The notes below the pieces were generated by a model. The model did no database searches and was not told the origin of the DNA. It worked only from the letters and a program-made list of their open reading frames with translations. A program made the translations under genes and the position numbers. Source: Flaccisagitta enflata (taxonomy: Eukaryota). Taken from it: DNA of 64,000 bases. Positions 1 through 63,130 of the stretch are shown here, one piece after another; the stretch's first letter is position 1, and each line of letters starts with the position of its first letter. Location of the stretch: NCBI GenBank assembly GCA_965153355.1, contig OZ231126.1, forward strand, positions 29,450,001 through 29,514,000, in the 5' to 3' direction.

Positions 1-1180
<1,180 letters not shown>

Positions 1181-1188
1181 GTCCACAG

Positions 1189-16396
<15,208 letters not shown>

Positions 16397-25030: not shown

Positions 25031-25476
25031 TTTCGCAAGCTGTAGCTGTTTGTTCCTTCAGTTTTTGGGCAGCGGCCTCAAAGGGCCGATGTCCTGTAGG
25101 ACACAGGGGGAATTTTGAGACGTCCGTCCGTCTGTCCTTCAGTCCTGCTGTCACCCCCTTGGCCATTGGAGCCTCAATTCTGCAGTCTCAGGCCTGATTT
25201 TGGCCCTCTGAGCCCTCAAATTAGCCCTTTCAGACATCAATTTAGCCCTTTAGAGCTCAAATCAGTTCTCAAGACCTCATACCTGCCCTCAAGACCTCAA
25301 ATCAGCCCTCCGGACCTCAAATCCGCCCTCCAGGCCTCAAATCAACTATTCAGGCCCCAAATTTGTCCTCCAGGCCTCAAGCCTGCCCCCCCAAACCTCA
25401 AATCTGCTCTTTTGACTGACTTCAAATCCACCTCAGGACGTTTCAAAATTCACCCCTGTGTCCTACAGGGCCGCTG

Positions 25477-25813
25477 CACCACGTAATCTGAGGTGGGATT
25501 AAAACCCGGGGTATACTCGGGTTTGCTTGGGTATGCTCGGGTATTGCTTGGGTATTGCTCGGGTATTGCTTGGCTATTGCTAGAGTATCACTTGGGTATG
25601 CCTTGGTATGCCTGGGTATGCCTGGGTATGCCCGGGTATTACTTTGGTATTGCTTTGGTATCGCTCGGGTATGCTCGGGTATGCTCCGGTATTGCTTGGG
25701 TATTGCCTGGGTGTTGCTTGCGTATTGCTAGGGTATTTTTTGGGTAAGCTTGGGTATGCTCCGGTATTGCTCGGGTATTAATCTCACATTTTACTATCAA
25801 AGATTACTAGGTG
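25477..25813. mobile_element. Transib-like MITE filled with 10-bp repeats (GGGTATTGCT-type)
   Basis: CGCTG|CACCACGTAATCT...AGATTACTAGGTG|CGCTG: CAC/GTG ends and a perfect 5-bp TSD. Confidence 0.75.
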
Positions 25814-25940
25814 CGCTGCCCTGCTCTCACTCCACTACTCCACTTGATCACTCCAAGCAGGGCATCGGGTACCGCTGACCATGGATGACTAGTTTTTCTC
25901 TGTCTGTCTGTCTGGCTGCCTCTCTCTCTTTCTCTCTCAC

Positions 25941-25978
<38 letters not shown>

Positions 25979-26601
25979 CAAATCCAACTGCATAATGTAG
26001 TGATGAGTTTTTAAGTAACATGTCTCAGAGACCACAGAATTTTTCTTGGCGCCCTCTGGAAGAGCATGGTCAACATTACTAGCCCTGTAAATTACATGCT
26101 TAGTCCCAAATGACCCCCATAACTTACCAACTTCCTCAGAAAGCCGTAAGACCTCATAAAGATGCTTCTCAAATCTAAGAGAAACGAGGCCGGATACACA
26201 GCTATCCCAGTCACGTATGGGTGGGCAGGCCCTGCCCACCCACACTGGGCAGGGGTAGTGAGCTGGTTTCTGGGGCATTTTCGCCAAAAAATTGAATCGA
26301 CCAATAGACCGACTCAACATACTGACCGACGGACCAACAGGCCGACATAGCAGGGTGCGGAGTCGCGTAGCACGCGACTAAACAAGCCCTGGCGGGCAAA
26401 TCGATGCATCTACGAGATATTGGAGGAGGCGTAACGGATGTACGTATGGACGGACGGACGGACGGACGGACGGACAGACCCTCTTGTAGAGATGCGATGA
26501 AGCATCTAAAAACAATTTTTTTTTACCGCATATGTATGGAGTCCATACTTATACGTTAATACTATGGACTGACTGTCCTGATTCTTTTGCATTGGCAGAA
26601 T

Positions 26602-29382
26602 ATGGAAATTCTTCGACATTTGTTCCTGATATTCGCTCTGGTAATCGTTTCCAACAACTGTGATGAAGCAAAGGTAATTGACTTATCATCCAAGGACCGC
26701 ATATGGTCAGCAGTTCCCATTGCCCTCCTAAGGATGATTACTGATTAGCCAAAGGAGTGATGAGAGCAGGGCAGTAGCTTTAATGAACAAATGTCCTTTA
26801 GAATATGTAAATTAACGATCGTCCATCCAGATCCTGATCTCATGCTTGAATTGAAGCCTGGGGATAAGAGGTCAGCTTTGGGGTTTGAGGGATCGCGTCT
26901 TGAGAGGGTTGATTTGAGACCTGAGATTAGGAAGGGCTGAGTTGGGGTCTGATAGGGCTAAATCGAGCTCCGAGGCCTGAGGTAGCTGAGACAGAGGCTT
27001 TGAAAGACTGGTTTGAGGCAAGCAGTACTAACAGATTTAGCACCTAGATGAGCAGTTCAAGGCCTGAGGGGCTGATCTGAACCCAGAAAAGGCTTTTTTG
27101 AGACTAGGCAGGGCTAGACCTGAGATGGGCAATATAGGGCTCGAAGGGCCTGATCAGTGATCAGGCATCGGAAATAACTAGGAGGACGTAGTGGGTGATG
27201 GATGGACATTTTGAAATTCGACCCTGATCTGAAGCCATCGTATCAAGCAAAAGTTCCGAAACGACTCGTGTATACCCTGTCTTCAGAAGCTACTGCAACC
27301 AGCAAAAAGATCTTTTGTGTGAAATCTATTCACATCTCATAATCCGCAACTGCTTCTGAAGACAGGGTTCGGCCATGAAGCTGAAGCTATAACATGAAAC
27401 CTTGTTTAGTATTCAGTTTTCCGGAGCTATCACAAAGTGATGATTGAAAAGATGGCTGTAACAATAGTAACAAAAGAGGGGTTACAATATCGCTTCGGAT
27501 GGGTGGGCAGGGGCGTCCAACCCCCATCCCATAACCCCACACATAAACATTCACAAAAAGTACTTGAAACACTCGTTTTCCCACTTTTTGACTAAATCAC
27601 CACGGACTGACGGACAGACCAACGGACGGACGGACGGACAAAGCCTCTTATAGAGTTGCCTGTCCGCAACTCACACATGGACGCAAAATACAGTGTGATG
27701 AGGCGCCAAAAGTTTTAGCACCCCCCCACTACAGCCAATTTGGCTGAATGAAAATTCATTTTGAAAATTGTTTTGAGTGACTAAGGGGAATATAAATGGC
27801 GTCATCAGAGGGGATTTTAAGATTGTATCTAGAACCTTGAAATTTATCACTTTTTACTCTATTTTTTATGTTTTTCTAAGAATGTATTTTTTATGAGTAA
27901 AACTGATAAATTTCAAGGTTTTAGTTACAATCTCAAAAGTCGCTCTGATGACGCCATTTGTATTCCCTCAAGTTACTCAAAAAATATATAATGAAAGTAT
28001 ATAATAGAAAATTTCAGTCAGCCAATATGGCTGTAGGGGGGTTCTAATTTTTTTTTGCTTTTGGCGCCTCATCACGTTCTATTTTGCGTCCATGTGTAAA
28101 AAATTAAAACTGCCGACAAATATTTTGGGAATCAAACGATGACAAAAGATCCAGGTTCAGGTGTGGAGTAGGATTATGGTTAATGAATCGATTAAACAAT
28201 ACACACTTCGAAAGACTTCGGAAGAAGCCTCATGAAAATACCATGTCATGAGACTTTGCATGGTGTTCACCAATACTATGGAGGAGGTCGGAAAAATAGG
28301 GGCAAAAAAATCTGTATTGTAGGAGTACAGTAAATGCCACCTAAAGTTAATGCACAAATATCATCTATTAGGGTAAAATTCAATTGATTTTGATCGTTAA
28401 ATTACCTACAGGTGCTTCTTCCTCAATACCTTACTTGTTCTTATCATGTCCCAGAGCATTGAAATACTAGTCCTTGTTGTCCTACAGTTGTTCCAGAGTT
28501 GTCCTGAAGTTGTCATAAAAGTGTATGTAGCTTAATCCAAGATATCAAGAAAATTACCTTTTAGCCAAAAGTATTTTTGAAAAATGTTTATTTTTTTTAC
28601 CAGAATATTCTTTGACTTGTCCTAGACTCATCCCATTTTGTCCTAGAAAAAATCACTTGTCATAGAGTTGTCCAAAGCTTATCCTAATTGTCCTTAAGTC
28701 ACAATAGTTGTCCTAAAGTTGTGCCAAATTTACCTTTGAGTTGCCTCTAATCAAAATATGAAGAAAACTCTCTTTCAGCCAAAAGTTAGTTTAAAAATGT
28801 TCATTGATTTTATCAGAATTGTCCCAGAGATGTCCAAGAGTTTACTTGAAATTATCCATGAATTGTCTCAGTTATACTAAAGTTGTCCAGATATTGTCTT
28901 AATTATCCTTAGGTTGAACATATTGTAACTTTCATTCAGATGCTGCCGCGATGCAAAATTGGCTACTAATCTCATGGTAAAAAATTGTTCCAAAGCTGCG
29001 TTACTTACGTCCTTCAGCCCATTTGCCGCTCGAAAAGAGCCATCTTGGGTCGACCACTTGATCACTCATTAACTATTTATTTTATGACATTCTTTTAACG
29101 GACTGTTTATTAGTGAATGTCTTTGTTTCTTTTACCAATAAAGGCGGCTCTCGCCGGCTGGAAAAAAGTCGTAAATGGGAGTCTTTTTTTTCATTGCATC
29201 TTCTTCTGTGTGCATCTCATGATGTCTGGTCGACTGCCTCCTGTTTTTGTCATTCAATCTGTCTCTCTGCGTCTCTTTTTTGGTCTTCCTTTGTCTTTGA
29301 GTGTGTGCGTGTGTGCTTGTGTGTGTGTGTGTCTCTCTCTCTCTCTCTCTCTCTCTCCCTCTCTCTCTCTCATTCTCTCTCT

Positions 29383-29429
<47 letters not shown>

Positions 29430-32400
29430 TTTCTCTCTCCTCTCTCTCTCTGTCTCTCTGTCTCTCTCTCTGTTTCTCTCTGTTTCTCTCTCTCTCTCTC
29501 TCTCTCTCTTCTCTATGTGTGTGTATGTGTGTGTGTGTATGTCTCTCTCTGTTTTTTTCGTTTTTTTTCTTTTCTTTCTCTCTCTTTCTCAAGCAGAATA
29601 AAATGCAAAAGCTAGCGTCATAAAACTCAGGGTCAATTTGTGTAACATCCTGACTCTTCTGTATTGTTACATAGGGGCTGAGAAATGGGATCAATGAAAA
29701 ATCTCGATTTTCGCAAAAATGCGAAAAATAAAAAAAGCTCAAAAAATTAATAGCGCCAAAATTAATGATCGTAGAGACTTCTGGTTGGTGCCATTTGAAA
29801 GAAAAAAATTAGCTCTTTCTTAGCTGTGAATATAAAAAAATGTATCATCCCAGGCAGGAAATGGCTCAACTTCCACAAATTCCCCAAATCAAAAATGGAA
29901 AACCCGATTTCTCCCCTACGTTTCAAAAAGTTGAATTACGTAATTCGACTTTTTTCCAATAATGCAAAAGCTAGCGTCATAAAAGTTAGGGCCAATTTGT
30001 GTAACATCTTGACTCTTCACTTATGTTACATGGGCCTGAAAAATGGGATCAATGAAAAATATCGATTTTTGCAAAAATGCGAAAAAATAGTAAAAGATTC
30101 AAAAATTCATAGCGCCAAAATTAATGATCGTAGAGACTTCTGGTTGGCGCCATTTGAAAGAGAAAAATAAGCTCTTTCTTAGCTATGAGTATCAAAAAAT
30201 GTATCATCCCAGCCCCAAAACGGCTCAACTTCCTAAAATTGTCTCAAATCCAAAATGGAAAACTTTATTTCTCCCCTACGTTTCAAAAAGTCGAATTACG
30301 TAATTCGACTTTTTTTCAATAATCGTTGCGCACACAATCCAATGATCTGTATCAGGCTTTGTCTTGCAATTATTGCACGTATTCCAACCTAATAATGAGT
30401 TTTGTGTTTCGCCTTTGCTGTTTTTATATTTCATGAATACAAAAAACATACTACTTTTATGCCAGTTTCCCCAGGGTTGCCTAAGACCTAAGGAAATTTT
30501 TGCCGTCAGTTGTTTTAAAGATGTCCCAGAGATGTCCTAAAACTATCCACCAGCTGTCTAAAAGGGTATATTTTTTGCTGGAAAGTTTACAGATCTGTTT
30601 GAATAAACATAATAATGCTCAGTACTTGTCTAGCCTCTCATCAGCCATCTCAAGCCTCAAATATGCTCCCTTAGACCCCATATTCTAAAATCAGCCTTTT
30701 GGGCAGCGGCTCCAAAGGGGACAATGCACAGTGGTTCCAAAAAATAAAAAGTGCACTAAAATCCCAGTTTTCTCATTGGGACCTATTTCAGACACGAGAA
30801 ATCCAATGGTGATGTTTAGATTTTTCTGTCACTTAAGGATATTGCCTTAAGGGCATCTTGAAAATAGCTAAAAAAATTTTGTTTGAAAAAAATATTTTTG
30901 TTAAGCCTAATTGTAGCCTAATGGTGGCAATAAGTGATAACAGGTGTCATTTGACCTCCTTTTGGGGTTTCAAGGACTCAGAGGCGTGTTAAAGCCATTT
31001 TTCAGCCGTTTTTAGGGTCAAATGCCCATATTTTCAACAACAACGCCCTATTGTGAGGCCAGAATTGAGTGTATCTATTATGACTGCACCTTCCTGTAGA
31101 TTTTTTGAGTGGCCCTACTCTTTTTCAAGCCTCTATGGTGTTTTAAAGTCATTTTTAAGCAGTTTTTAGGGTCAAATGCCCATTTTTTCAATGGCAACGC
31201 CCTATTATGAGGCCAGAATCAAGTGTATCTATTCAGAATACCCCTTCCTGTAAATTTTCAGATTGGCCCTACTCTTTTTCAAGCCTCAATGGTGTTTTAA
31301 AGCCATTTTTCAGCAGTTTTTAGGGTCAAATGCCCATATTTTCAATGACAACGATCTATAGTGAGGCCAGAATTGAGTGTATCTATTGAGAATGCACCTT
31401 CCTGTAAATTTTCAGATTGGCCCTACTCTTTTTCAAGCCTAAATGGTGTTATAAAGCCATTATAAAGCAGTTTTTAAGGTCAAATGTCCAATTTTTTAAC
31501 AGCAATGCCCTATTGTGAGGCCAGAATCAGGTGTATATATTCAGAATACACCTTCCTGTAGATTTTCAGTTTGGCCCTACTCTTTTTTAAGCCTCAATGG
31601 TGTTTTGAAGCTATTTTTCAGCAGTTTTTAGGGTCAAATGCCCATATTTTCAACGACAACGCCCTATAGTGAGGCCAGAATTGAGTGTATCTATTCAGAA
31701 TGCACCTGCCAGTAAATTTTCAGATTGGCCCGACTGTTTTTCATGCCTCAATGGGTTTTTAAAGCCTTTTTTAGCAGTTTTTAGGGTCAAATGCTCATTT
31801 TTTCAACGATATTTCCCTACAGTGTGGCCTGAAATTAGTGTATCAATTTAAAATGTACTTCCCTGTGAATTTTCAGATTGACCGTTCTCCTTTTCAAGCC
31901 CCAATGGCGCTTAAAAGCCTATTTTCAGCAGTTTTTAGGGTCAAATGTCAATTTTTCAACTGCAACTCCCTGTTAAGTCGCCAATATTCATCAAGCTGTA
32001 AATTTTCAGATTGTTCTATTAATCTCGCTTTAAATAAGCGCATAATGCTCTGTTACACACATGCAGAATGCTCTGTTACACACGCATGTCCCTGCCCTCC
32101 CACATAGGCGACTACTTATTGGCCATATATCCAGCCTTGCTTTAACCTGAGAGTCGCGGATGGGTGGGCTGGAGCAGAATAGCGAAAAAATGCTTACATT
32201 TTGTTTTGGTGACGGAACGACGGAGGGACCAATGGAGAGGCCGAGGTACCGACTGACAGACGGACTGACACCGCAAATTCTAGAGTCACTAACAAGCTAA
32301 CGTAGGTAATCATAGCGATAAATAAAGAGCATTTGTGGATCATGGAATTATTGAGTTACAAAGCATACGAAGTATACAAAGCATACAAAGCATACAAAGC

Positions 32401-32678
32401 AGACGGATACATACAGACGTGTATCCTATTCTATCTGATAGACCGATAGACGGACATACAGTTGCAAGCACAGCGAAACAGAAATATTGATGTTGTTTTT
32501 GTTGTTGCCTTTGTAATTTTTGTTGTCGTTCAAATTGTTGTTGAAATTGTTGAAATTGTTATTGTAATTGTTGTTGCAGTTGTTGTTGTACTTCTAGTCG
32601 TTGTGATTTTTGTGATCGTTGTTGTGATTGCTCTGGTTGTTGTTGTTGTTGTTGATAATGTTGTTGATTTTACTGGCG

Positions 32679-32717
<39 letters not shown>

Positions 32718-33557
32718 TTGTTGTTGTTGTTGTTGTTGATTTTACTGGCGTTGTTGTTGTCAGTGTTGTTGTTGTCGTTGTTGTTGATTTTACTGGCGTT
32801 GTTGTTGTCAGTGTTGTTGTTGTTTTTGTTGTTTTCTTTTTGGTGTACTTCTATCATAGTTGTTGTAGTTATTATCAAGTTCATTGTTGTACGCTGTAAT
32901 GCGAGTGAGCGCAGTGAGCGCAGTGAGCGGTGCAAGCGAACAATCATAGCGAGCGACCGAGTGAACTGTTAACAAGGCTGGATACACGGCCAATATCAGT
33001 CGCGGATGGGTGGACAGAGGCGGATAAGCGAGTTTTCACACTTACCGACTCGATCATCATGGTCCAATGGACACACGGACGGATGGATGGATGGATGGAT
33101 GGATGGGTGGACGGACGGACGGATGGATGGACGGACGGACAGACAGACAGAGCCTCTCATAGTGGCTAGTCTGCGATTAGAAACCCGATTGTCTGAGACT
33201 TGAAATACACCCAATAATTCTATGGGATTCACACGGCCCTGAAAATTGATTGAAAGGCAGACTTTCGGCCTGAGAGGGCAGATTTCAGCCCCGAGAGGTC
33301 GGATTTCAGGCCAGAGAGGGTAGATTTCAGGCTAGAGAGGGCCGATATCAGGCCTGGGGGCCAGATTTTGGGTCGGGAAGGGCAGATTTCAGTCTTGGGA
33401 AGGCAGATTTCAGGTCCAAGGGGCCTGATGGGGGGGGGGGGGGAATGGGGGACAAACAAACGGACGAATAGACGAACGAACAAACAAACGAAAGTCCCCG
33501 TGTGTTTTACAAGACTTTGTCTCCTTCGGGGCCACTGCTGAAACAGAGAAACGTACA

Positions 33558-33605
<48 letters not shown>

Positions 33606-36600
33606 GGTTGTTGCAGTAATTGTTGTTGCGGTTGTAGTTATAGACTTGTAGTCGTGATTGTTGTTGTTATTATTGTTGTTGTTGTGATTGCTTTGGTTGT
33701 TATTGTTTAAAAAAAAATGTAAACAGTATTTGGGTCCGCGACGGAGGGGGGTTAAAGATCACCAATTCCATAAGATCGCTATCACCAAAAGATCGCTAAC
33801 CCTGTAAATTTGCTAAAACTTTAAGTCTTACATTTAGAGTATCCATACAAAGATTCATGCAAATCCATTGCAAAATGGCAAAGTTATGCACGTTTTTCAC
33901 TTTTAGGCTAGTAGGAGGGTTTGGTGGTAGGCTGGTTTGAATAAATAGTGTGCATATGTTGAGTTCTTCCATTTAGAGACTCCATACCAAGTTTCAACCA
34001 AATTGGTTGAAAAATGTCCAATTTATGCAAGTTTGTTACTTTTAAGACGGTTAGCTGGTTAGGTGGTAGGTCGGTTTGGCCGGTTAGCATAATCAAACGT
34101 AAATAAATCACATACATATGTTGAGTCCTTCCATTTGGAGACTCCACACCAAATTTAAACCAAATAAGTTGAAAAATGCCAAAGTTATGCACGTTTTCAC
34201 TTTTAGGCCGGTAGGCTGGTTGGGTGGTAGGCTGGTTTGACAGGACAAATAGTGTGCATATGTTGAATTCTTCCATTTAGAGACTCCATACCAAGTTTCA
34301 ACCAAATCAGTTGAAAAATGACAAAGTTACGCAAGTTTTTCACTTTTAGGCCGGTTGGCTGGTTGGGTGGTAGGTCGGTTTGGCCGGTTAGCATGCTCAA
34401 ATGCATATAAATCATATACATATGTTGAGGCCTTCCATTTAGAGACTCCATACCAAATTTCAGCCAAATCGGTTGAAAAATGCCAAAGTTATGCACGTTT
34501 TTCACTTTTAGGCCGGTAGGCTGGTTGGGTGGTAGGCTGGTTTAACAGGATAAATAGTTTGCATATGCTGAGTCCTTCCATTTAGAGACTCCATACCAAG
34601 TTTCAACCAAATCAGTTGAAAAATGACAAAGTTACGCAAGTTTTTCACTTTTAGGCCGGTTGGCTGGTTGGGTGGTAGGTCGGTTTGGCTGGTTAGCATG
34701 CTCAAAATGCATATATACATATGTTGAGGCCTTCCATTTAGAGACTCCATACCAAATTTCAGCCAAATTGGTTGAAAAATGCCAAAATTTTCACTTTTAG
34801 GCCGGTAGGCTTATGGTACGGATAGTTCAATCTGAACCATCGGATAAAATAAAAGTTAATTTATATTTTTTTGAAATCGAACGGATAAAATGTAAAAACC
34901 ATTTTACCACCCGACAAAGATACAAAATTGTTATTTAATTGTTGTTGTTGTTGTGACAACGGTTTACGTTTGAACAAAAAAAACAATGATATTCCGTCGC
35001 GGACAAAAAACAGCGAAAATCATCGACAAACATTGCGTGATGGGACAACTAAATTTTTTGATTTAAGCTTCTTAGGGCGTGTTTCTAGTGACGATCAAAA
35101 AAGCGTGTGTCCCTGTGAAATGCGTTCTCAGTGTGAACACATGTTCATGAAGTGAGTGAAGTGAGTGAGCGAGCGAGCGAAGCGAGTGCAACGAAGTGGA
35201 GCGCTGCGAAGCCAGTGAGCGGTGTGAGCGAAGCGACTGAGTGGCCCGTAAAAACGCAATTGCTTGTGACTAGAATGCGCCCTGAGTCAAAACTAAAGTT
35301 TTAATGTCTTTGTGTGATTTAACATTCTATCCTTAGACATAATGCTAAGGCGACGACTCAACGTAAGCTGTTTCTTCATTTTCTGGCCTCAAGGGAAAAA
35401 AATGTTTGCTAAAACGGGGAAGAAGTGAATTCTTAGTGGCAAAGGCACCAGTCATTTTCCCGCCAAAACCGGGAACTGATTTTTTCCGTTTTCATTTTTT
35501 TCAAAACGCGTTGAGTTGCGAGCGAAAATGATTCCACTAGGCAACGACCACCGATATCCCGAATCTTAAAAGCAAGCCAAAATTTTTACCAAATTTTACC
35601 GTTTCCATTGAGAGCGCCAGAAACATGCGGGAGCGCAATTTGGTGCTTTTTTGTGGGATAGGGTGGCTTCCCAAACTTCGGCCCTTCTCAGGTGATGAAC
35701 CATGTCATTACCTTTCGTTTGGTACCCCGCATGAAACTTTTCTTGGAACACTGCCGTCATGGGCATGAAAACAAAATTCCTCATCGGATGACAAAAGCAA
35801 ATACCAAAAGTCATTTTCTGACTCAACGGACGCTCATATGGACATCGAACTGGCACTAAATGAAACATATTGGGATATGTGACCGACACTGGTGAAAATT
35901 TGAGTCCCAAATTCAAGCTGCGACTGTGGGAGCTTTTAATTTTTTTGAACGAATGTGCAATGTCCTGTAGAACACAGGGGACTTTTGTTCATTCATCCGT
36001 TTGTTCATTCATCTCTCATAGACCCTCTCAGGCCTGAAATCTGCCCTCTCAGGCCTGAAATCTGCCCTCTCAGGCCTGAAATCTGCCCTCTCAGGCCTGA
36101 AATCTGCCCTCTCAGGCCTGAAATCTGCTAGATTCCAGGCCTGAGAGGGCAAATTTAAGGCCTGAGAGTACAGGTTTCAAACCTGACAGGCAAAAAAAAA
36201 AAAAACACAAATATTAGGCTTGATAGTTTCAGTCTGAAGCCTGAGACTAAAGTTTTAGGCCAAATAGCAATTTTCAGGGCTTCGGAGCCGATTTGATGAC
36301 TGAAAGGCATATTTGAGGTCTGGAGGGCAAGCTTCAGGGCATCAGGCTTTGAGGGTAGACTTATGCCACAGAGGGCTTATTTGAAGCTTAAAGGGCTAGA
36401 TTAGAATTTGGGAGGGCTTGGAGACCAAACAAGGCCGGATACACGGCTACCCCAGTCGCGTGCGGGTGCGCAAGGGCCATAATTGAGGTCAGTGGAACTT
36501 TTGGGCACGAGCAATAGGGCCAAAATGCCTATTAACGCCGAAAAAGTAAAGTGTGACGAACGGACGGACCAACGGACGGACCGACCGACAGACCGACAAA

Positions 36601-38823
36601 GCGGCGTGTAGAGTCGTGTAGCACACGACTAAAAATGAGGCCTGAGAAAACTATTTGAAGTCTTAATGGTAAACAGGGGGAAAAAGACAGACAGACAGAC
36701 AAATGGAAGGACGGACAGACAGATTGACAGATGTTTGAATAATCACCACGGTATTCTACAGGACATTGACCATTGGAAGAAAACAGACAAACAGAGTGAT
36801 CAACAGATAAGGCCATAGAGGTCTGATTATCCCAAGAGAGGTTTGAGGGAAAATGTATAAGCAGAAATTTTGATAAAAAAACTCAATTGCAGGACATTTA
36901 CAGTGGGGTTCGTGGAATAACAGCCTAAACTGGAGGAAGGTATTTAAGTGTCTTAATTTTATTTGACAAATTTGATATTTGAAACATAAGCTGTTCACTC
37001 GATGCTTTTCTCCCTGAGTTTTTTGGTTGCTATGGAAACCAAAATTATTTTTTCAAACATTTATAATCACTAAAATATCAATAATTTAAGAAATATTGTT
37101 AGGGAACATTGCTCAAAATTAAATTTCCCACAGTATGTTCTGTAAGAATATTGCTCGTTTGGCCGTTGCTAGGGGGCATCACACCTAGCAACCGCAAAAT
37201 GATGCTCCCTAGCAACGGCTAAACGAGCAATATTCTTACAGGACATACTGTGGGAAATTTGTAGCAAATTTAATTCTGAGCAATGTTCCCTGATAATATT
37301 TGTCAAAATATTGATATCCTAGTCGTTATAAATGTTTAAAAAAATAATTTTGGTTTCCATAGCAACCGAAAAACTCAGGGACAAAAGCATCAAGTGAACA
37401 ACTTATATTTCAAATATCAAGTTTGTCAAATAAAATTAAGACATTTAAATACCTCCCTCCAGTTTAGGCTGTTATTCCACGAACCCTACTGTACTTATTG
37501 GAAGATGCTGAGACGAGTGTTGAACAACTTCATTAAGTATTGACTAAAACCGCTCTATGAACTTCAAGCAACTCTCCAATGATTGAGAGGCAACATTTAA
37601 ATAACTGGTAGACTCCTCTTGGACAACTGTGGAAAATTTGGAGCTGCTGATTGAGTCTCTGAACAATTTTGTTTTTCTTTCAGAATCCACCGCAAGAGCG
37701 AATTTAATTCAAATAGCTTCGGGTCGTAACACATAAAACCCAGCCAACCCTTAGCCCTAAAGCTAACCTTGTCCCTAACCTTAACCCTAAAACTATCCCC
37801 AATCCTAACCCTAAACCCACCCCTAACCCTAATTTAAAAAACCGCTTAAAAAGTCTTAAAAACAAAAGATCGACAGATGGTTGTTCAAGTGTACCGAAAA
37901 TTCAACTAAAAGATTAGAGGCAACTCAAAAGGAAATTTAGCACAACTTTAGTACTACTATTTTAACTTTAGGACAATTAGGACAAGCCTTGGACAACTCT
38001 AGGACAAGCGACATATTCTAGAACAAGTTTAGGATAATTTAAGACAAGTCTAGGACAAATCTAGGATAACTAGGACAATTCTGGTTAGACTAAAGAACAT
38101 TTTTCAAAAATACTTTTAGCTAAAAGGGAATTTTCTTGATATCTTGGAGTAAATTACATACACTTTCAGGACAACTTCAGGACAACTCTGGAACAACTGT
38201 GGGACAACAAAGACTAGTATTTCAATGCTCTGGGACATGAAAAGAACAAGTAAGACATTAGGAAAGATGCACCTGTAGGTAATTAAACAATCAGAATCAA
38301 TTGAATTTTACCAAAAAAGATATTATTTGTGCATTTACTGTACTCCTACAATACGGATTTTTTTGCCCCTATTTTTCCGACCTCCTCCATAGTATTGGTG
38401 AACACCAGCGGCGTAGGGGAGCTGGATTTCTTGGGACATCAGCCACCAAACTAGTGTCCGACAAATCTGGTGTCCCAACAGACAATAATATGTAGTTTTT
38501 GCTTGAAAATTGTGAAAAATCGTAATTACTACCATACTCTTGTTTTCTTTGAGATCTTAGATAAGTGGGATGGGGCCTAATCATGCCTGGTATAGGAGAA
38601 AATAGTTTTTTTCTCTCTCAGCCACAGCTTGTGCCTAAATACCTATCTTCACTTCTTTTTTTTACTTACTTTGCTCCCCTACATCCCTCTTTATTTGCCT
38701 TAAACTAACATAAGCTTGAAAACCACAGAATTTTGATTGCTTTATTTCTGTCTTATTTTCTTTACGGTTCATCTTTTGTTTCATCTATTTTTCTTCTACT
38801 TTTTTTACTTTTCCTGTTTGTCC

Positions 38824-38859
<36 letters not shown>

Positions 38860-38896
38860 GTCTCTCTCTCTGTCTCTCTCTGTCTCTGTCTCTGTC

Positions 38897-38969
<73 letters not shown>

Positions 38970-40922
38970 TTTTCTTTTTTTTTCCTTTCCCTTTTTTTTT
39001 CTTTTCTTTTTTTTTCTTTTTTTTTTTCTTTCTTCCTTACTTTCTTTCTTCTTTGGTGTCCCGACAACTTTGGTGTCCCGACAGCAGGGACATCAATTGA
39101 TGTCCCTGATGTCCCTTGTCCTACGCCGCTGGTGAACACCATGCAAAGTCTCATGACATGGTATTTTCATGAGGCTTCTTCCGAAGTCTTTCGAAGTGTG
39201 AATACTCAGTTACCTGACATTTTCTTCCAGTCTAAACGGGGCCGGCCGATTCCCTTCCGCTTCGGCAAGCGCGCCCTGACCGAATTTGATAACTTCAACA
39301 GTGACAACAGCAACGATAACAACAACGTCATCAGCAACAATAAAAGTATGAATGACGATGAAGAGGAGGATTTGGGCTGGAGCATCGCCATGTTGAACAA
39401 GAGAGTGAGACCCTTTAGGTGAGTAGAGATTCTCTGTTTTGCATTCCAAATAAGATTCCATCCTTTCAACAAGCTGTTACTGAAGTTAATCAAAGATTTT
39501 TCTTGTCGGGATTAGAGATATAAGAATTTGATTTTACAAAAAGCTGAATATTGAAAGTTCTATTTTTGTGTTTGTGCTAATTCCGAATACGTCTGTCTAC
39601 CAGAATAAACCAAATTGGATTATGCATTTCAATTAGGTGAGCCAGTATCATTTTGTCCATGCATTGTTATTGTCAGAATTTTGATAAAATTGGAAATGAT
39701 CATTCGAGATCTGTAATGAAGGGGGTTAATTAGAGCTCATGAATCATTAGTCATGTGCACACGAGTCTACAACTTGTTATGTCCCTGGGATGGATGGACG
39801 GCCAGTCGTTGGTTGGTCGTTAACACAAAGCTTTTTCGGCGTTTATTGGCGGTTTTTGAATCACTGCTTCTGCCCACCCGTCTACGACTTGGGTAGCGGT
39901 GTACCGGCCTTGTTTTTGAGAAAAAAAAATGGTCTTAAGGTAGTAGAGAAAGAGAAAACTTTTCAAGAAGCATTTAACATTCAAAAATATTTTTGTATCA
40001 TTCCATGAAAGCACTAATTCGTTTTTTAATGCTTCATAGGATGCCCCTTAAGACCACTTTTTTTTCTCGAAAAACAAGGCCGACCAACGACCAACGACTG
40101 GCCGTCCATCCATCCCGGGGACATAACAAGTTGTAGAGTCGTGTGCACATGACTAATGATTCATGAGCTCTAATTAACCCCCTTCAAAACAGATACGGTA
40201 AACAAGGCCGAGTGATTCCGTTCCGATTTGGCAAAAGAGTTGACGAGAATATCGCGGACGAGTTGACGCAAGCTTGGAGGCAATTCCGGCAAGCAGCTCG
40301 TGCCGACAGAAACGCCGCCACCATCGTCGACAGTAAAAATGCCGACAGCGAGAAGAAACTTGATTCAATCATTCATGGTGATGACAACAACAACAATAAT
40401 GATGACGGCGTCATTGAAACGGTGGATCTGTTAGAGAATAAAAGAGCTCCCAAAGTGCCGCTCAGATTTGGCAAGAGAATGAGGTATGGATGCGAAAAAC
40501 AAGAATGTAGTACTGAATGTATTAATACTGCGTAGGAAAACTTATCCTGGCGCGCTTTTTTAGATAATTATCAATTAAATCAAGCTAGATCTTTCCATTC
40601 CCACACCCTCAATCCCCCACTCCCTTATCTGTTTCTTCTCCTTGATACCATCCCATCTCGTTTTCCTCGTAGTCTTGGTCCGGAAGCGATTGATTCCGCA
40701 TCTCCCTTCGACGCCGCTTTTTTCTACGACGAAGATTACGACGCCGACGTCGCCGCTTTGGACGACGCCGCCATCTTCGACAAAGTCGCCATGTCAGACG
40801 CCATCAAACGGACCATCCCGTTTCGATTCGGCAAAAGAGCGCCGATTCCTTTCAGATTCGGCAAAAGAGCGCCGATCCCCTTACGATTCGGCAAGAGGGC
40901 GCGACCGTTACGATTCGGATAA
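26602..40922 (+). CDS. Neuropeptide precursor, multi-copy P-[F/L]-R-[F/Y]-amide (RFamide-type), 266 aa
   Basis: Exons: 26602-26673 ([24 protein letters not shown], signal-peptide-like), 39231-39418, 40193-40483 and 40673-40922 (TAA); 801 nt with matching phases 0/2/2. Gly-terminated peptides flanked by [60 protein letters not shown], separated by acidic/Asn-rich spacers. The link from exon 1 across the 12.6-kb intron is inferred. Confidence 0.88.
27674..28096. mobile_element. Fold-back MITE with CAC...GTG termini
   Basis: CACATGGACGCAAAATA...TATTTTGCGTCCATGTG; arms pair over nearly the full length; flanks TCA/TAA (imperfect 3-bp TSD). Confidence 0.8.
30990..32010. repeat. ~154-bp tandem repeat (about 7 units) inside the Transib-like element; same array at ~47210-48095
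   Basis: TTTAGGGTCAAATG recurs at ~154-bp spacing. Confidence 0.85.
33840..34810. repeat. Tandem repeat with alternating ~143/~162-bp units (dimeric higher-order repeat)
   Basis: CACTTTTAGGCCGGT and CCATTTAGAGACTCCATACCAA recur with alternating spacing. Confidence 0.8.
36901..37491. mobile_element. Palindromic Tc1/mariner-type MITE
   Basis: TA|CAGTGGGGTTCGTGGAATAACAGCC...GGCTGTTATTCCACGAACCCTACTG|TA; arms pair almost to the centre. Confidence 0.88.
38406..39131. mobile_element. hAT-like non-autonomous element
   Basis: GTGAACAC|CAGCGGCGTAGG...CCTACGCCGCTG|GTGAACAC: 12-bp TIR and 8-bp TSD; the empty site is visible in the opposite arm of the host TIR (~28263-28270). Confidence 0.88.
39717..40186. 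repeat. Inverted duplication in neuropeptide intron 2
   Basis: 39717-39940 is the reverse complement of 40046-40186, apart from an internal deletion in the right arm. Confidence 0.85.
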
Positions 40923-43878
40923 TCTTTAAATTTTGGAACAAAATGGAAGCGGGAGAATCCTCTCTCTCTCTTGCTTTTGCCGATTTGGATCGAAGATCAC
41001 GATTTGTCAAGGTGAGTGAAAATTTGTCTTTGAGTGAATAGTAGGAGGAAACAAGTCATGATCGGCAGTCCTACATCTGCGGTTTTCATAATAACAAGTG
41101 ACGCGGGGTCACAATGTCGTTGCGGACGTTTGGGCAGGGGCATCCAACCCCCATCCAAACCCCAACTCACCCCCAATAGTGAGGGATATTGTTCCACTTT
41201 TCATACACAACAAGGCCGGATACACGGCCAATACCAGTCGCGGACGGGTGGGCAGGGGCGGAAATGCGTGTTTTCCCTCTTTTTGACTCGTGCTCACCAA
41301 CGGACCGACCGACCGACCAACGGACGGACGGACGAAGCCTCTTATAGAGTCGCTTGTCCGCGACTAAAAAGTATCGAAAAGCTCGTTTTCCCACTTTTCA
41401 ACTCGATCACCATGACGGATGGACGGACGGACGGACGGACGGACGGACAAAGCCTCTAATAGAGTTGCGTGATCGCAACTACACGAATAAAAACTCGTGC
41501 TGCTGGGAGAGGCTGAAAGGGGGTCTTACCCTGCACAATTCAGTTTAAAATTGTCTTTGTTTTGTTTTTTTTTTCTTATTTTTTTATATCAAGTTAAAGA
41601 GTGAAAAGGATTTTAGATGATTTCCCTTGAATGACAACGATTTCCTTCCCCTATCTTACATCATCCCCTGATGTTAAAGATAATCGTTTTCTTCTTTTTC
41701 AACAACAGAAAATGTTTTGAATACAAAATCAGACCAGAGAAAGGCGGCGAAATCAGAAGTTCCGAATGCCATTTATAAGTTGAGATACAAGATGAGCTTT
41801 ACCCTGTCTCGTGTGTTGCTTCGTTCAATAAGCAGCTTGTTTGGTATGAAATCAACAACACATATTTTCTGTTCTGCTGTGCTCAGGACCTGGAACTTCC
41901 AATACTTCGCGGGAAACCGTCTCACGATGTTCGGATTTTGTTTTAATCAGCAATCTTGTATTCCTGATTCCTTATCATGAAATCCCGAACGTTAAACGGT
42001 TTGACGGTTTACCTAAACAATTATTTTTTAGTTGCAATGCATGAAAAAAAAAAAACAAATAAAAAAAAAACGCCATCACAAGCTTTACTCAACCTGCCAT
42101 GAAGCAAGCAGACTGCCACAATGACATCAAAATTTCGAAACTTTTCAGCAGTTTCACGAGGAATCTACCAAAATCTGAATTTTTGTTTTCTAGTTTTGTA
42201 TGAAAGTGACGAGGAATTCCTTGTCATGTCACGAACAAACTCTAAATACCTTCACTGCCTGCTTAATGGTTGGGTTGTAATAAAAGCTTTTGAGATGGTA
42301 TCCATCGGTCATAGATAGCATTTTAGATTTCTTTAAAGTGCATTGTCCGTTTTTTTGTTTTGGTTGCCTATTGCTTTTTCCTAATCGCAATAAAGTATCT
42401 GATTTTGGACGACTTTTCAAACAGTCCTTGATAGACCAAGCAATTAGCATCAAAACATGAGTTTGTCAAGATTTGGATTCTGAATGAATGCCATGCCAAA
42501 AGAAACGTGAATGTGCACTTCAGACGCTTTTTGGGCTATATAACCTTTTAGGCTATCCAATGCTGAACGATGGGATCTGTAGTTTGCAAATCTGTGGATG
42601 ATAATTCAGCATTAATAAAAATGTTTGTCAAAATGTACCGCGTTACGCGCGTGCGCACTTGTGTAACTTCTGTTCCCGCGTCTCTTCCTGTATGTACGAT
42701 GATTATCCCAGCACTGACTCAAAATAATTCTTGTAGTGACTCAACATTGTTCTAGTTTTGACTCAAGAACAAACCGATACCTTCTTGGCGCAAGTAAACA
42801 TCCCGATTTCCCATTCGAAATTTCGCCATCTCTGCGACATAAATGAATACCTTAAAAAAAAAAAAAAGAAAGAAAAAAAAATGAAACGTAAAGAAAACAT
42901 CCAATAAATATTCGTTACCTGCCGTTTGCTTTGGTCCAGTATTCATTCGTAAAAGCCATTCTGAGATCGAACTCCAAGCTCACGATATTCATAACATCAC
43001 CGCAATAACTTTTGCATTCCACGCAAGCTAGAAGATTCTTGGCGTATTTACCATATGACGCCATGGTTATAGGTGTCACGTTGTTCTTCCACCACATTAG
43101 CATTGGGAAACAAATAAAAAGCATCGAATATGTTTTCAACATCCCTCTATCAATAAAACTAAAAAAAAGAAGCAGAAAACGTGGTTTACATTTTAATTTT
43201 TAAAGATTTTTAAGCTAGCGTGGTAATTTCATTTTGCTCAATATCAAGTCCCCTGGAAGTGCGATCTCAGCGATTTCCCCGCACTCAAATGTAAATGTAC
43301 TTGTGTTACTGTGTCTCTGTTTCAGCGTGTGCATTTGTTTACACCACATGTAACCAATCGCTCATCAAAATAATTTTTTTTTGCGTACACTTCCATTATC
43401 AAGTTACTCAAATACAATGATTTAAATCAATGTGGTGGGTTCATTGTCTCAAAATGGTTTGTCACCCGTTACTATCAGCCATTTCTTTGCAAAGTTCCGT
43501 TGATGCGTTATGTTACAGTACATAAAAAATGATTCAATCGTTGTACGTTTAAACCGGCGCCGATACTATAAAGTCCACCTATTTTCCCACCTTCCTCAAC
43601 GCACTTGTCCTACTAAATGTGTACAAATGTGTACACTTGTGTAACTGCACAAAGGTGTAGCCCGGCCAAAATCAAATTTCATCATTATGCATTCTTATTA
43701 ACGTTGTTGTTGTTGACGTCTTGATTACAGTTCGCTTTCATGTGCCCCACCAAGAAAAAAAGCTCGTCTTTCTTTCACTATTTCCTTCTTTCTTTCTCTC
43801 TTTGCTTGCTCTTGCTTTCTTGCTTTCTAGCTTTCTAGCTTTCTTGCTTTCTTGCTTTCTTGCTTTCTTGCTTTCTTG

Positions 43879-46363: not shown

Positions 46364-63130
<16,767 letters not shown>

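What the first reader, a model, noticed from the sequence alone, without database searches (positions are those of the whole stretch)
26602..40922. Multi-copy PxRF/Y-amide neuropeptide precursor that the ORF track does not assemble
Seen: a 24-codon signal exon 12.6 kb upstream splices in phase to three exons encoding eight distinct peptides: GRPIPFRFa, VRPFRYa (split by an intron), [10 protein letters not shown] (after a single Lys, N-terminal Gln), APKVPLRFa, TIPFRFa, APIPFRFa, APIPLRFa and ARPLRFa (Gly directly before the stop). Known: Gly-Lys-Arg signals cleavage and amidation. PLRFamide endings occur both in vertebrate GnIH/LPXRFamides and in nematode FLP-15/FLP-21 (sNPF-type), so the motif alone does not fix the family. 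Inference: possibly an undescribed or lineage-specific RFamide signalling system informative about GnIH/NPFF versus sNPF/PrRP evolution.
Basis: partly seen in the sequence, partly recalled or inferred. Interest (0 to 1): 0.8.

Follow-up and report, generated by a model that had tools for sequence, protein, structure and literature searches.

The report
Multi-copy RFamide neuropeptide precursor gene
A real, spliced gene of an unidentified marine animal encodes a secreted precursor for eight short RFamide-type neuropeptides; this is an ordinary kind of signalling gene, but the variety is undescribed and one intron sits where neuropeptide Y genes have theirs.

Summary
Exons 39231-39418, 40193-40483 and 40673-40922 (+) encode exactly the eight peptides listed, each followed by Gly plus a basic site or the stop. 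One marine metatranscriptome contig joins these three exons at the predicted borders and carries 16 further 5' letters, so an upstream exon exists.

The 26673-to-39231 joint was not seen directly. However, 26602-26673 is the only one of 1482 ATG-to-GT mini-ORFs in the window that combines a strong hydrophobic core with a strong phase-0 donor. With it the CDS is 801 nt, 266 aa.

Close relatives exist only as unnamed marine metagenome fragments. In them the peptides are conserved and the spacers vary.

The nearest named proteins share only the short motif. They are rotifer xPYRF, copepod xPLRW/xPSRF and mollusc LFRF-type precursors.

Nothing tested ties the gene to GnIH/NPFF. A new lead: intron 2 splits the Arg codon of ...RPFR|Y-G-K after its second base. 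That is the hallmark position of NPY/NPF genes.

Verdict: a new member of the short RFamide precursor kind. Orthology and taxon are unresolved.

The parts
26602..26673 (+). Candidate exon 1: start codon plus a 24-residue signal-peptide exon (MEILRH / [11 protein letters not shown] / NNCDEAK). Ends on a codon boundary; donor AAG|GTAATT.
   Evidence: Unique in the window by hydrophobic core plus donor score. Not repeated elsewhere in the window. Its joint to 39231 was not seen directly.
26674..39230 (+). Intron 1 (12,557 nt, phase 0). Most of it (28199-39203) is bounded by long inverted-repeat arms.
   Evidence: Inverted pairs 28199-28752 versus 37912-38407 and 39130-39203. The acceptor at 39230|39231 is used in RNA.
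39231..39418 (+). Exon 2: SKR, peptide 1, GKR, an Asn/Asp/Glu-rich spacer, KR, and the first five residues of peptide 2 (last codon split after 2 nt).
   Evidence: X1 contig record 6.
39240..39266 (+). Peptide 1, GRPIPFRF + Gly (predicted [13 protein letters not shown]), between KR and KR.
39405..39418 (+). Peptide 2, first part: V-R-P-F plus the first two bases (AG) of the Arg codon.
39419..40192 (+). Intron 2 (774 nt, phase 2), lying inside the Arg codon of the C-terminal R-Y of peptide 2. It holds a 482-bp inverted-repeat element (39711-40192) whose end supplies the acceptor AG.
   Evidence: Position compared with the NPY/NPF hallmark.
40193..40483 (+). Exon 3: last base of Arg, Y-G-K, peptide 3, GKR, spacer, KR, peptide 4, GKR, M, then a split codon.
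   Evidence: X1 record 6 and X2 record 14 (203 nt, no differences). An ENA metagenome fragment, P0092, is 100% identical over the exon.
40193..40202 (+). Peptide 2, second part: third base of Arg, Tyr, Gly, and a single Lys with Arg at P4 (predicted VRPFRYamide, or a 17-mer with peptide 3 if the Lys is not cut).
40203..40232 (+). Peptide 3, QGRVIPFRF + Gly (N-terminal Gln, so pyroGlu is possible).
40446..40472 (+). Peptide 4, APKVPLRF + Gly.
40484..40672 (+). Intron 3 (189 nt, phase 2), GTATGG...TAG.
40673..40922 (+). Exon 4, coding part: an acidic spacer, then four tandem peptides and the stop codon.
   Evidence: X1 record 6 and X3 record 22. Relatives P0006, P0062, P0007 and P0008.
40812..40832 (+). 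Peptide 5, TIPFRF + Gly.
40839..40862 (+). Peptide 6, APIPFRF + Gly.
40869..40892 (+). Peptide 7, APIPLRF + Gly.
40899..40919 (+). Peptide 8, ARPLRF + Gly, directly before the stop. The C-terminal ...RFG-stop is shared by P0006, P0062, P0007 and P0008.
40923..41011 (+). Start of the 3' UTR, up to a consensus donor (AAG|GTGAGT at 41011|41012). A further 3'-UTR exon may lie beyond.
   Evidence: X3 record 22 lies on 40737-41012, and 106 further letters of it are not placed on the laid stretch.

Best explanation
This is a genuine, expressed four-exon gene for a secreted prepro-neuropeptide of 266 residues. Its class is the short multi-copy RFamide precursors, the FMRFamide-like / short-NPF-like style typical of protostome animals. 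The organism is an unidentified marine, probably planktonic, metazoan.

Exon 1 supplies a signal peptide that directs the protein into the secretory pathway. Prohormone convertases cut after the KR pairs, and probably after the single Lys of R-Y-G-K, which has Arg at P4. A carboxypeptidase removes the basic residues. Each exposed C-terminal Gly is converted to an amide.

The products would be seven x-P-[F/L]-R-F-amides and one RPFRY-amide. One peptide has an N-terminal Gln that can cyclise. The last is amidated from a Gly that directly precedes the stop. The acidic Asn/Asp/Glu-rich stretches are spacers.

The peptides most likely act on one or more RFamide-type G-protein-coupled receptors. This receptor step is the least supported part. 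Orthology to a named bilaterian family is not established. By motif (Pro at -4, Phe/Leu at -3, RF-amide, many copies) it sits closest to the sNPF/LFRFamide/FLP-15/21 style.
For: Shown:
- Eight R[FY]-G-(KR/K/stop) sites lie in one frame within 1.7 kb, and none of the other 8 such sites in the window forms a series.
- All three introns have canonical GT..AG borders, and the joined CDS is open for 801 nt with one terminal stop.
- An RNA-library contig joins E2, E3 and E4 at the predicted borders and runs on into an unplaced upstream exon. Two further runs of the same study hold exon 3 and exon 4 sequence.
- The signal exon is statistically unique.
- phmmer against 1.84 billion representatives found 56 proteins at E <= 1e-3. 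I read 53 of them, and all but P0025 (allatostatin-A-like ...YSFGLGKR repeats) and P0027 (...RYGKE repeats) are repeat precursors ending in RF, RW, RY, RL or QF before GKR/GR.
- The four closest hits (95, 86 and 71% identity, plus a genomic copy) keep K-R, P-F-R-F-G-K-R and the terminal R-F-G-stop invariant, while the spacers and the copy number vary. That is the pattern of selection on the peptides.
- ARPLRF shares its last five residues with nematode FLP-21, GLGPRPLRFamide, an NPR-1 agonist (passages of PMC5333901).

Inferred: the processing steps, amidation and receptor type.
Against: - The 26673-to-39231 joint was not observed, and an extra phase-0/0 exon in the 12.6-kb intron cannot be excluded.
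- Splicing rests on one contig at depth 5.55 from one study.
- The one poly-A RNA run offered (X4, about 6 in 100 reads sampled) put essentially nothing on the exons. Nearly all its laid reads were 90-95% alike on repeats, so it is uninformative and may be another species.
- No Pfam family, including FARP, hits any exon product at E <= 1.
- No full-length relative with a signal peptide was found.
- There are no peptide-level data.
- Cleavage at the single Lys is only a rule-of-thumb prediction.
- The taxon is unknown, so 'not yet described for this taxon' could not be checked against a species-specific literature.
Confidence: 0.78

Rival explanations
1. The gene descends from an NPY/NPF-type gene. 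Intron 2 would be the ancestral NPY/NPF intron. The original long peptide would have decayed into a spacer with a new internal KR site, and short RFamide copies would have multiplied around it.
For: Intron 2 lies between the second and third base of the Arg codon of the C-terminal R-Y, followed by Y-G-K at the start of the next exon. PMC7314547 (passages read) and its preprint describe exactly this position, citing Mair et al. [quoted passage not shown] They also describe a second intron further 3' in the precursor, which this gene has too. The split peptide is the only one ending in RY and carries an R-P.
Against: There is no 36-40-residue peptide directly after the signal peptide. A KR site lies six residues before the C-terminus, and the upstream stretch is low-complexity Asn/Asp/Glu. 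The ending is R-P-F-R-Y, not R-x-R-[FY]. There is no Pfam pancreatic-hormone hit. AG|A and AG|G Arg codons are natural splice contexts, and 3 of the 8 Arg codons here are AGA (read). By my own rough estimate, not computed, a chance hit is a few per cent to about ten per cent. No relative's gene structure could be read.
Confidence: 0.12
2. It is the invertebrate counterpart of the vertebrate GnIH/NPFF (LPxRF/PQRF-amide) system.
For: All seven RF peptides end P-x-R-F, and three end [I/V/R]-P-L-R-F, close to LPLRFamide. Amphioxus is reported to have at least two precursors of PxRFamide peptides with LRFamide endings (PMC4062910, section 12 read).
Against: The similarity is a four-residue motif that also occurs in nematode FLP-21. 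The architecture (eight copies, GKR sites, acidic spacers) differs from the few-copy vertebrate precursors; that contrast is recalled, not tested here. There is no Pfam hit. [quoted passage not shown] Every named relative found is a protostome protein.
Confidence: 0.05
3. Exons 2-4 are right, but the true first coding exon is not 26602-26673. It could be another signal exon, an extra intervening exon, or a start further upstream.
For: The joint was never seen. The contig's 16 upstream letters were not printed. An acceptor-like site (TTTTGCATTGGCAG) ends 3 nt before the ATG, so the transcript may begin further upstream or be trans-spliced there.
Against: No other candidate in 22.8 kb upstream comes close. 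The next best has a donor of 3.0 bits against 9.3. Only 1 of 1482 mini-ORFs in the window passes the joint threshold, and 0 of 200 shuffles match it. The exon ends in AG, as the contig's letters 17-18 require, and it lies in unique sequence between two repeats.
Confidence: 0.15
4. It is not a functional gene: a chance run of motifs, or a decaying pseudogene.
For: No annotated protein for it exists in the collections searched. The region is full of repeats and mobile elements, one of which abuts exon 3.
Against: There is spliced RNA. The joined frame is intact. The peptide and cleavage residues are invariant across four diverged relatives. The signal exon is statistically unique.
Confidence: 0.02

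Closest known systems
Unnamed marine metagenome fragments P0006/P0062, P0007, P0008, P0024 and P0092 (ENA assemblies)
   Same: They cover the same gene or its orthologues. Exon 4 is 95%, 86% and 71% identical, with ...SDAIKR-x-[IV][17 protein letters not shown]... and a terminal RFG-stop. Exon 3 is 100% identical in P0092.
   Different: They are fragments of 65-128 residues from contigs of 542-1039 nt. They have no signal peptide, no names and no organism. Copy number differs (3 to 5 peptides in the last exon).
Bdelloid rotifer precursors with xIPYRF / xMPYRF-GKR repeats (Rotaria magnacalcarata CAF5202935.1; Rotaria sordida CAF0825379.1 and relatives; unnamed products)
   Same: Tandem [I/M]-P-[Y/F]-R-F-G-K-R units at the C-terminal end of a short precursor. 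These are the best named hits (E 4e-12 to 4e-6).
   Different: They have Tyr where this gene has Phe/Leu, only 3-6 copies, a last unit ...HFRLGKK, and a first peptide about 20 residues long. The similarity is limited to the motif, so homology is not shown. A preprint reports rotifer FMRFamide and NPF precursors, but its sequences are in figures and supplements that I could not see.
Copepod 'LWamide neuropeptides-like' precursors (Tigriopus californicus XP_059093015.1; Lepeophtheirus salmonis XP_040577569.1)
   Same: About eight short peptides with Pro at -4, GKR sites and acidic spacers, ending in a tandem cluster AP-x-RFGKR.
   Different: Most copies end in PLRW rather than P[F/L]RF. The automatic name is probably a misnomer. 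The strings PLRWamide and PSRFamide had no occurrence in the 25 of 50 papers listed.
Mollusc LFRFamide-type (sNPF-type) precursors (Liolophura sinensis XP_064617813.1, Mytilus edulis XP_071152755.1, automatically named FMRFamide-related)
   Same: Multi-copy x-[L/F]-[F/L]-R-F-G-K-R with acidic spacers; one unit ends ...TPFRFG.
   Different: Position -4 is Ser/Gly/Leu, not Pro, in most copies, and there is a conserved terminal PHTPFRFGRE unit. Equating LFRFamide with sNPF comes from the literature (PMC9071130 abstract in the listing; preprint passages), not from a test here.
Nematode FLP-21 (GLGPRPLRFamide), ligand of NPR-1
   Same: It shares the C-terminal pentapeptide RPLRF-amide with peptide 8.
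   Different: That FLP-21 is a single-copy precursor in a different phylum is recalled, not tested. The match is five residues only.
NPY/NPF genes
   Same: A phase-2 intron inside the Arg codon of the C-terminal R-[F/Y], with [F/Y]-G-K at the start of the next exon and a further intron downstream.
   Different: This gene has no long helical peptide next to the signal peptide, has eight short peptides instead of one long one, and gives no Pfam hit.

Membership tests
FMRFamide-related peptide precursors (FaRP/FLP; Pfam PF01581 FARP) | Several copies of a short peptide ending R-F followed by Gly and a basic cleavage site | tested here: met
   Seven RF-G and one RY-G sites with KR, K or stop.
FMRFamide-related peptide precursors (FaRP/FLP; Pfam PF01581 FARP) | Match to the Pfam FARP profile | tested here: not met
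   No family at E <= 1 for P0002, P0004 or P0005. In the same call two of the three phmmer hits included as comparison (P0011, P0010) do hit FARP; P0009 does not. The profile is 11 positions long and built around F-[ML]-R-F.
FMRFamide-related peptide precursors (FaRP/FLP; Pfam PF01581 FARP) | N-terminal signal peptide | tested here: inconclusive
   The candidate exon is statistically unique, but its joint to exon 2 was not seen. No SignalP was available.
sNPF / LFRFamide type | Short peptides, usually several per precursor, ending [L/F]-R-[F/W]-amide with Pro a few residues upstream (arthropod consensus xPxLRLRFamide, recalled) | tested here: inconclusive
   P-[F/L]-R-F is present in 7 of 8 peptides. 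The arthropod RLRF core is absent. The mollusc LFRF and nematode PLRF forms fit partly.
sNPF / LFRFamide type | Peptides activate an sNPF/PrRP-type receptor | not testable with these tools
   No genome is held for this window, and no assay is possible.
NPY / NPF | Intron between bases 2 and 3 of the Arg codon of the C-terminal R-F/R-Y | tested here: met
   Exon 2 ends ...TTT AG|, and exon 3 begins A TAC GGT AAA. The border is used in RNA. The definition is from PMC7314547 passages.
NPY / NPF | A single peptide of about 36-40 residues directly after the signal peptide, ending R-x-R-[F/Y]-amide | tested here: not met
   A different short peptide follows the signal. KR lies six residues before the RY end, and the ending is R-P-F-R-Y. 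There is no Pfam hit.
GnIH / NPFF (LPxRF / PQRF-amides) | C-terminal P-x-R-F-amide | tested here: met
   PFRF or PLRF in seven peptides. The motif is not specific, since nematode FLP-21 shares it.
GnIH / NPFF (LPxRF / PQRF-amides) | Precursor recognisable as NPFF/GnIH type by sequence | tested here: not met
   No Pfam family at E <= 1. No vertebrate or amphioxus protein was seen among the 53 phmmer hits I read or the 8 of 30 clusters that carry an organism name.
GnIH / NPFF (LPxRF / PQRF-amides) | Ligand of an NPFF/SIFamide-type receptor | not testable with these tools
   No receptor data.

The most novel reading that the evidence does not exclude
A short, multi-copy RF/RY-amide precursor that still carries the NPY/NPF hallmark intron would be a living intermediate between long NPF-type and short sNPF-type genes. 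It would give direct gene-structure evidence that short RFamide families arose from an NPY/NPF-like ancestor by truncation and tandem multiplication, as the authors of PMC7314547 speculated for the NPY/NPF and PrRP/sNPF paralogues.
Probability: 0.12. Interest if true: 0.75.

Novelty: new member of a known kind. Interest (0 to 1): 0.4.

Why it matters
Multi-copy RFamide precursors are routine finds, so the gene itself is a modest addition. It is an undescribed xIP[F/L]RF-amide set from an abundant but unidentified marine animal. It has relatives in several marine metagenomes, and motif-level look-alikes in rotifers and copepods that were not found under the names searched, among the papers listed.

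Two things give it more value. First, it is a clean example of a neuropeptide gene that automatic annotation misses. The signal exon lies 12.6 kb away, behind an 11-kb stretch flanked by inverted repeats. Second, the intron inside the Arg codon of the RY-amide peptide would, if inherited rather than coincidental, bear on an old question: how short NPF-like peptides relate to NPY/NPF. That question would then be testable by comparing the gene structures of the rotifer and copepod look-alikes and by receptor pairing.

Tried and rejected
1. Full-length relatives:
- The search for homologous proteins with exon 4, 'longer': 203 candidates, none at E <= 0.01.
- The same tool with exon 3, 'near': only a 100%-identical genomic fragment.
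- The search for related loci with alignment A1 in JGI metagenome contigs: 288 pattern matches, none a relative.
- Exact search for the last 24 nt of exon 1 in the same collection: 0 matches.

2. Taxon:
- No genome is held for the window.
- A search with a CLC channel exon gave 309 candidates and none significant.
- Rfam at gathering thresholds found 0 families and ARAGORN found 0 tRNAs.
- Earlier scan notes hold nothing.
- A degenerate TTAGGG-like array at 37750-37832 gave 4 matches, against a mean of 0.15 in shuffles. No TTAGG array was found. This is only a weak hint against an arthropod.
- I considered a chaetognath (rotifer-like motif, marine plankton) and a copepod. Neither could be tested. 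The chaetognath papers I opened mention only RFamide immunoreactivity and FMRFamide-receptor homologues (listings).

3. Poly-A RNA run X4: next to nothing on the exons, and nearly all laid reads were 90-95% alike on repeats. This is uninformative and is not evidence against expression.

4. ESM Atlas: best score 0.85. It returned generic neuropeptide-precursor clusters, and I did not use them.

5. Literature strings:
- 32 papers held at least one term and 30 were listed. PLRFamide refers to GnIH and FLP-21, and PFRFamide to mollusc and NPFF contexts. I judged this by title, plus three papers opened.
- 92 papers, 30 listed, all irrelevant by title.
- 50 papers, 25 listed, with no occurrence of PLRWamide, APLRFamide, PYRFamide or PSRFamide among them.
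- Copepod peptidome papers appeared only as listings and were not read.

6. I did not attempt profile or cluster analysis to assign orthology. The signal is an eight-residue repeat, and any score would reflect the motif alone.

Full report
**What is there**

The window is repeat-rich eukaryotic DNA of about 37-48% G+C, with a very high density of microsatellites and satellites (105 TRF rows). They encode eight short peptides:

| No. | Peptide and following residues |
|---|---|
| 1 | [11 protein letters not shown] |
| 2 | VRPFR\|Y-GK (split by intron 2) |
| 3 | [12 protein letters not shown] |
| 4 | [11 protein letters not shown] |
| 5 | TIPFRF-GKR |
| 6 | [10 protein letters not shown] |
| 7 | [10 protein letters not shown] |
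| 8 | ARPLRF-G-stop |

Each peptide is preceded by KR, or by a single K in one case. Asn/Asp/Glu-rich spacers separate them. A six-frame scan for R[FYW]G plus a basic residue or a stop finds 16 sites in the 64 kb. Eight are these, in one frame within 1.7 kb; the other eight are scattered singles. Nothing similar lies elsewhere in the window, so there is no tandem paralogue.

**Transcription and splicing**

Three RNA runs of one marine metatranscriptome study hold part of 39200-40960, with word shares of 0.23, 0.14 and 0.08. When laid on 24200-41200, one 650-nt contig of X1 (depth 5.55) covers 39229-39416, 40191-40481 and 40671-40825 in one piece. These are the predicted joints: every exon here ends in AG and every intron ends in AG, so the aligner's borders are shifted by two bases.

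A 203-nt contig of X2 matches exon 3 without a difference. A 379-nt contig of X3 covers exon 4 and the first 90 nt after the stop.

The first 16 letters of the X1 contig lie on nothing next to exon 2. The transcript therefore continues into an upstream exon, and letters 17-18 are AG.

The poly-A run X4 gave nothing usable (about 6 in 100 reads sampled, nearly all laid reads 90-95% alike on repeats).

**The signal exon**

26602-26673 reads [24 protein letters not shown]. It ends on a codon boundary in AAG|GTAATT.

I enumerated every ATG-initiated open stretch of 15-60 codons that ends at a GT in phase 0. Each was scored by the best 10-residue Kyte-Doolittle mean and by a recalled, approximate donor matrix.

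- Between the end of the upstream gene (16.4 kb) and exon 2 there are 182 such stretches. Five pass lenient cut-offs.
- Over the whole window and both strands, 1 of 1482 passes KD >= 3.0 with donor >= 7 bits, and it is this one.
- In one set of 200 mononucleotide shuffles, 3 gave any such candidate. In a second set of 200, none matched the observed values.
- The exon is single-copy sequence between two repeats.

With it the CDS is 801 nt, 266 residues and one terminal stop. I rate the exon as very probably right (about 0.85), but the joint itself is inferred.

**Why annotation would miss it**

Intron 1 is 12,557 nt. From 28199 to 39203 it is bounded by long inverted arms. These are 28199-28752 against 37912-38407 plus 39130-39203, at 78-99% complementarity. 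Satellites and microsatellites lie between the arms. Without that block, the signal exon would lie about 1.6 kb upstream of exon 2.

Intron 2 (774 nt) contains a 482-bp element with 110-nt terminal inverted repeats at 94% (39711-39820 and 40083-40192). Its last bases...ACAG, are the acceptor used in RNA. The dinucleotide AT flanks both ends, and the sequence before the left end reads ...TTCGAG. My inference is that the element inserted exactly at the old intron-exon border and now supplies the acceptor.

**Relatives**

phmmer with the exon-4 product against 1.84 billion representatives gave 56 proteins at E <= 1e-3, nine at <= 1e-10 and one at <= 1e-30. I read 53 of them (P0031, P0039 and P0057 were not read). 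I looked up names for 30.

The closest are unnamed ENA metagenome fragments:

- P0006 (95% identity) and its cluster mate P0062, a genomic copy that reads through the intron.
- P0007 (86%) and P0008 (71%).
- P0024, with [19 protein letters not shown].
- P0092, from the exon-3 search, which is 100% identical over exon 3.

In the alignment of P0005, P0006, P0062, P0007 and P0008, the invariant columns are the cleavage sites, [17 protein letters not shown] and the terminal R-F-G. The spacers and the number of units differ. That is what selection on the mature peptides looks like. It also shows that several related species carry the gene.

Eight of the 30 clusters carry an organism name:

| Organism | Repeat unit |
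|---|---|
| Rotaria magnacalcarata, R. sordida (bdelloid rotifers) | xIPYRF / xMPYRF-GKR |
| Tigriopus californicus, Lepeophtheirus salmonis (copepods) | xPLRW-GKR plus APSRF-GKR; automatic name 'LWamide neuropeptides-like' |
| Macrostomum lignano (flatworm) | GVFRW-GKR |
| Liolophura sinensis, Mytilus (molluscs) | LFRF-type with a ...TPFRFG unit |
| Plectus sambesii (nematode) | YRPLQF-GKR |

One JGI protein is labelled 'FMRFamide related peptide family'. All of this similarity is confined to the repeat unit, so it does not establish orthology. No full-length orthologue with a signal peptide exists in the collections searched.

**Family assignment**

Pfam gives nothing for the three exon products at E <= 1. 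Two of the three phmmer hits included in the same call do match FARP.

By motif, the peptides have Pro at -4, Phe or Leu at -3, and RF-amide. This is closest to the sNPF/LFRFamide/FLP-15/21 style. ARPLRF shares its last five residues with nematode FLP-21, GLGPRPLRFamide, an NPR-1 agonist.

The P-x-R-F ending also recalls vertebrate LPxRFamides. Amphioxus is reported to have PxRFamide precursors (PMC4062910, section 12). However, no sequence or architecture test supports GnIH/NPFF membership. The same review points out that protostome ligands of that receptor family are SIFamides.

Exon 2 ends ...CCC TTT AG, and exon 3 begins A TAC GGT AAA. Intron 2 therefore lies between the second and third base of the codon for the Arg of the C-terminal R-Y, with Y-G-K opening the next exon.

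Passages of PMC7314547 and of its preprint, citing Mair et al. [quoted passage not shown] A second intron typically lies further 3', and this gene has one.

The other NPF criteria fail. There is no long peptide next to the signal peptide, a KR lies six residues from the end, and the ending is R-P-F-R-Y rather than R-x-R-F/Y.

AG|A is a natural splice context, and 3 of the 8 relevant Arg codons are AGA. By my own rough estimate, not computed, a chance hit lies between a few per cent and about ten per cent. I therefore keep this as a rival at about 0.12 and as the most novel reading.

**Context and taxon**

- Upstream (about 1.1-16.4 kb, +) are exons of a CLC-type chloride channel with a CBS domain.
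- Downstream (about 50.2-63.1 kb, +) are cyclophilin-domain exons. A following exon reads ...ECGELP...DYPED..., and the last exon gives only weak TPR matches, below Pfam's cut-off. From recalled knowledge I read this gene as Cyp40-like.
- The neuropeptide gene is thus a separate unit in the 34 kb between them.

The organism could not be named, and no genome is held for the window. The presence of the gene and of the window's repeats in marine metatranscriptomes and metagenomes points to an abundant marine animal, probably planktonic. A degenerate TTAGGG-type array and the rotifer-like motif are weak hints only.

**Novelty and score**

None of the peptide strings, nor the rotifer and copepod look-alike endings, was described as a neuropeptide in the papers listed from the held library (only part of each hit list was shown). 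Supplements of bioRxiv preprints are closed. The rotifer FMRFamide and NPF sequences of the NP-HMMer preprint may therefore already include the Rotaria look-alikes.

The gene is a new member of a well-known kind, with a real but unproven twist in its gene structure. Interest is 0.4.

Noticed in passing
window 28199-39203 (inside intron 1): An 11-kb block is bounded by roughly 550-bp inverted arms: 28199-28752 against 37912-38407 plus 39130-39203 (78-99% complementary). The right arm is interrupted by about 720 bp of CT-rich simple repeats. The block ends 27 bp before the exon-2 acceptor. It looks like a large foldback or DNA-transposon-like insertion, and it explains the 12.6-kb intron.
   Followed up: partly
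window 39711-40192 (intron 2): A 482-bp MITE-like element has 110-nt terminal inverted repeats (94%). Its last bases (...ACAG) are the acceptor used for exon 3. AT flanks both ends, and the sequence before the left end reads ...TTCGAG, so the element seems to have landed exactly on the old intron-exon border. The same end is present in the ENA fragment P0092.
   Followed up: partly
window 41011|41012: A consensus donor (AAG|GTGAGT) lies 89 nt after the stop codon. X3 contig record 22 stops fitting there, with 106 letters left over, so a further 3'-UTR exon probably lies beyond 41200.
   Followed up: no
window 26585-26601: An acceptor-like site (TTTTGCATTGGCAG) ends 3 nt before the start ATG of the signal exon. 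Either a 5'-UTR intron or spliced-leader trans-splicing is possible.
   Followed up: no
window 7574-10600 (+): A 1008-codon open frame, very acidic (Glu/Asp/Ala/Ser/Val-rich) with 24/48/96-nt internal repeats. It sits between exons of the CLC channel gene and has no convincing Pfam family. It could be an exon, a nested gene or chance; this is unclear.
   Followed up: no
window 1100-16400 (+): Exons of a CLC-type voltage-gated chloride channel with CBS domains (Pfam Voltage_CLC E 7.6e-8; CBS E 3.1e-8). By recalled comparison it resembles CLC-6/7.
   Followed up: partly
window 50190-63130 (+), repeats at 59660-60362: A gene with cyclophilin-domain exons (Pro_isomerase E 1.6e-10 and 2.2e-5). Its last exon gives only weak TPR matches below Pfam's cut-off, so reading it as Cyp40-like rests on recalled similarity. 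The exon encoding ...[11 protein letters not shown]... lies in a tandem array of 103/207/310-nt periods, so several decayed copies of that exon precede the real one.
   Followed up: partly
window 37750-37832: A degenerate interstitial array of TTAGGG-type telomere repeats (4 matches to the dimer with at most 1 mismatch, against a mean of 0.15 in shuffles). No TTAGG-type array was found in the window.
   Followed up: partly
window 27602-27660 and related copies near 1600-1840, 32930-33200, 41300-41460, 49372-49450: A dispersed repeat ends in (GACG)n-like tetranucleotide runs. It is held at very high depth in the three marine metatranscriptomes (mean word depth 475 to 7019 in the bin 27602-28168) and also attracts most reads of run X4.
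   Followed up: no
window 30989-31971 and 47206-48093; 33827-34786; 55445-56553; 21-nt units at 23472-23934, 24593-24791, 36023-36128, 61225-61612: Several satellite families: a 154-nt unit in two arrays 15 kb apart, a 304-nt unit, an 80-nt unit (13.9 copies, 97% matches), and a 21-nt minisatellite scattered over the window. Long CT, CA, CCTT, GAAA, AAC and TCT microsatellites are also present.
   Followed up: no
proteins P0018/P0030 (copepods) and P0012/P0022/P0075 (rotifers): Copepod xPLRW-amide/xPSRF-amide precursors and bdelloid rotifer xPYRF-amide precursors are annotated only as 'LWamide neuropeptides-like' or as unnamed products. Their peptide endings had no occurrence in the papers listed. 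They may be undescribed families in their own right.
   Followed up: partly
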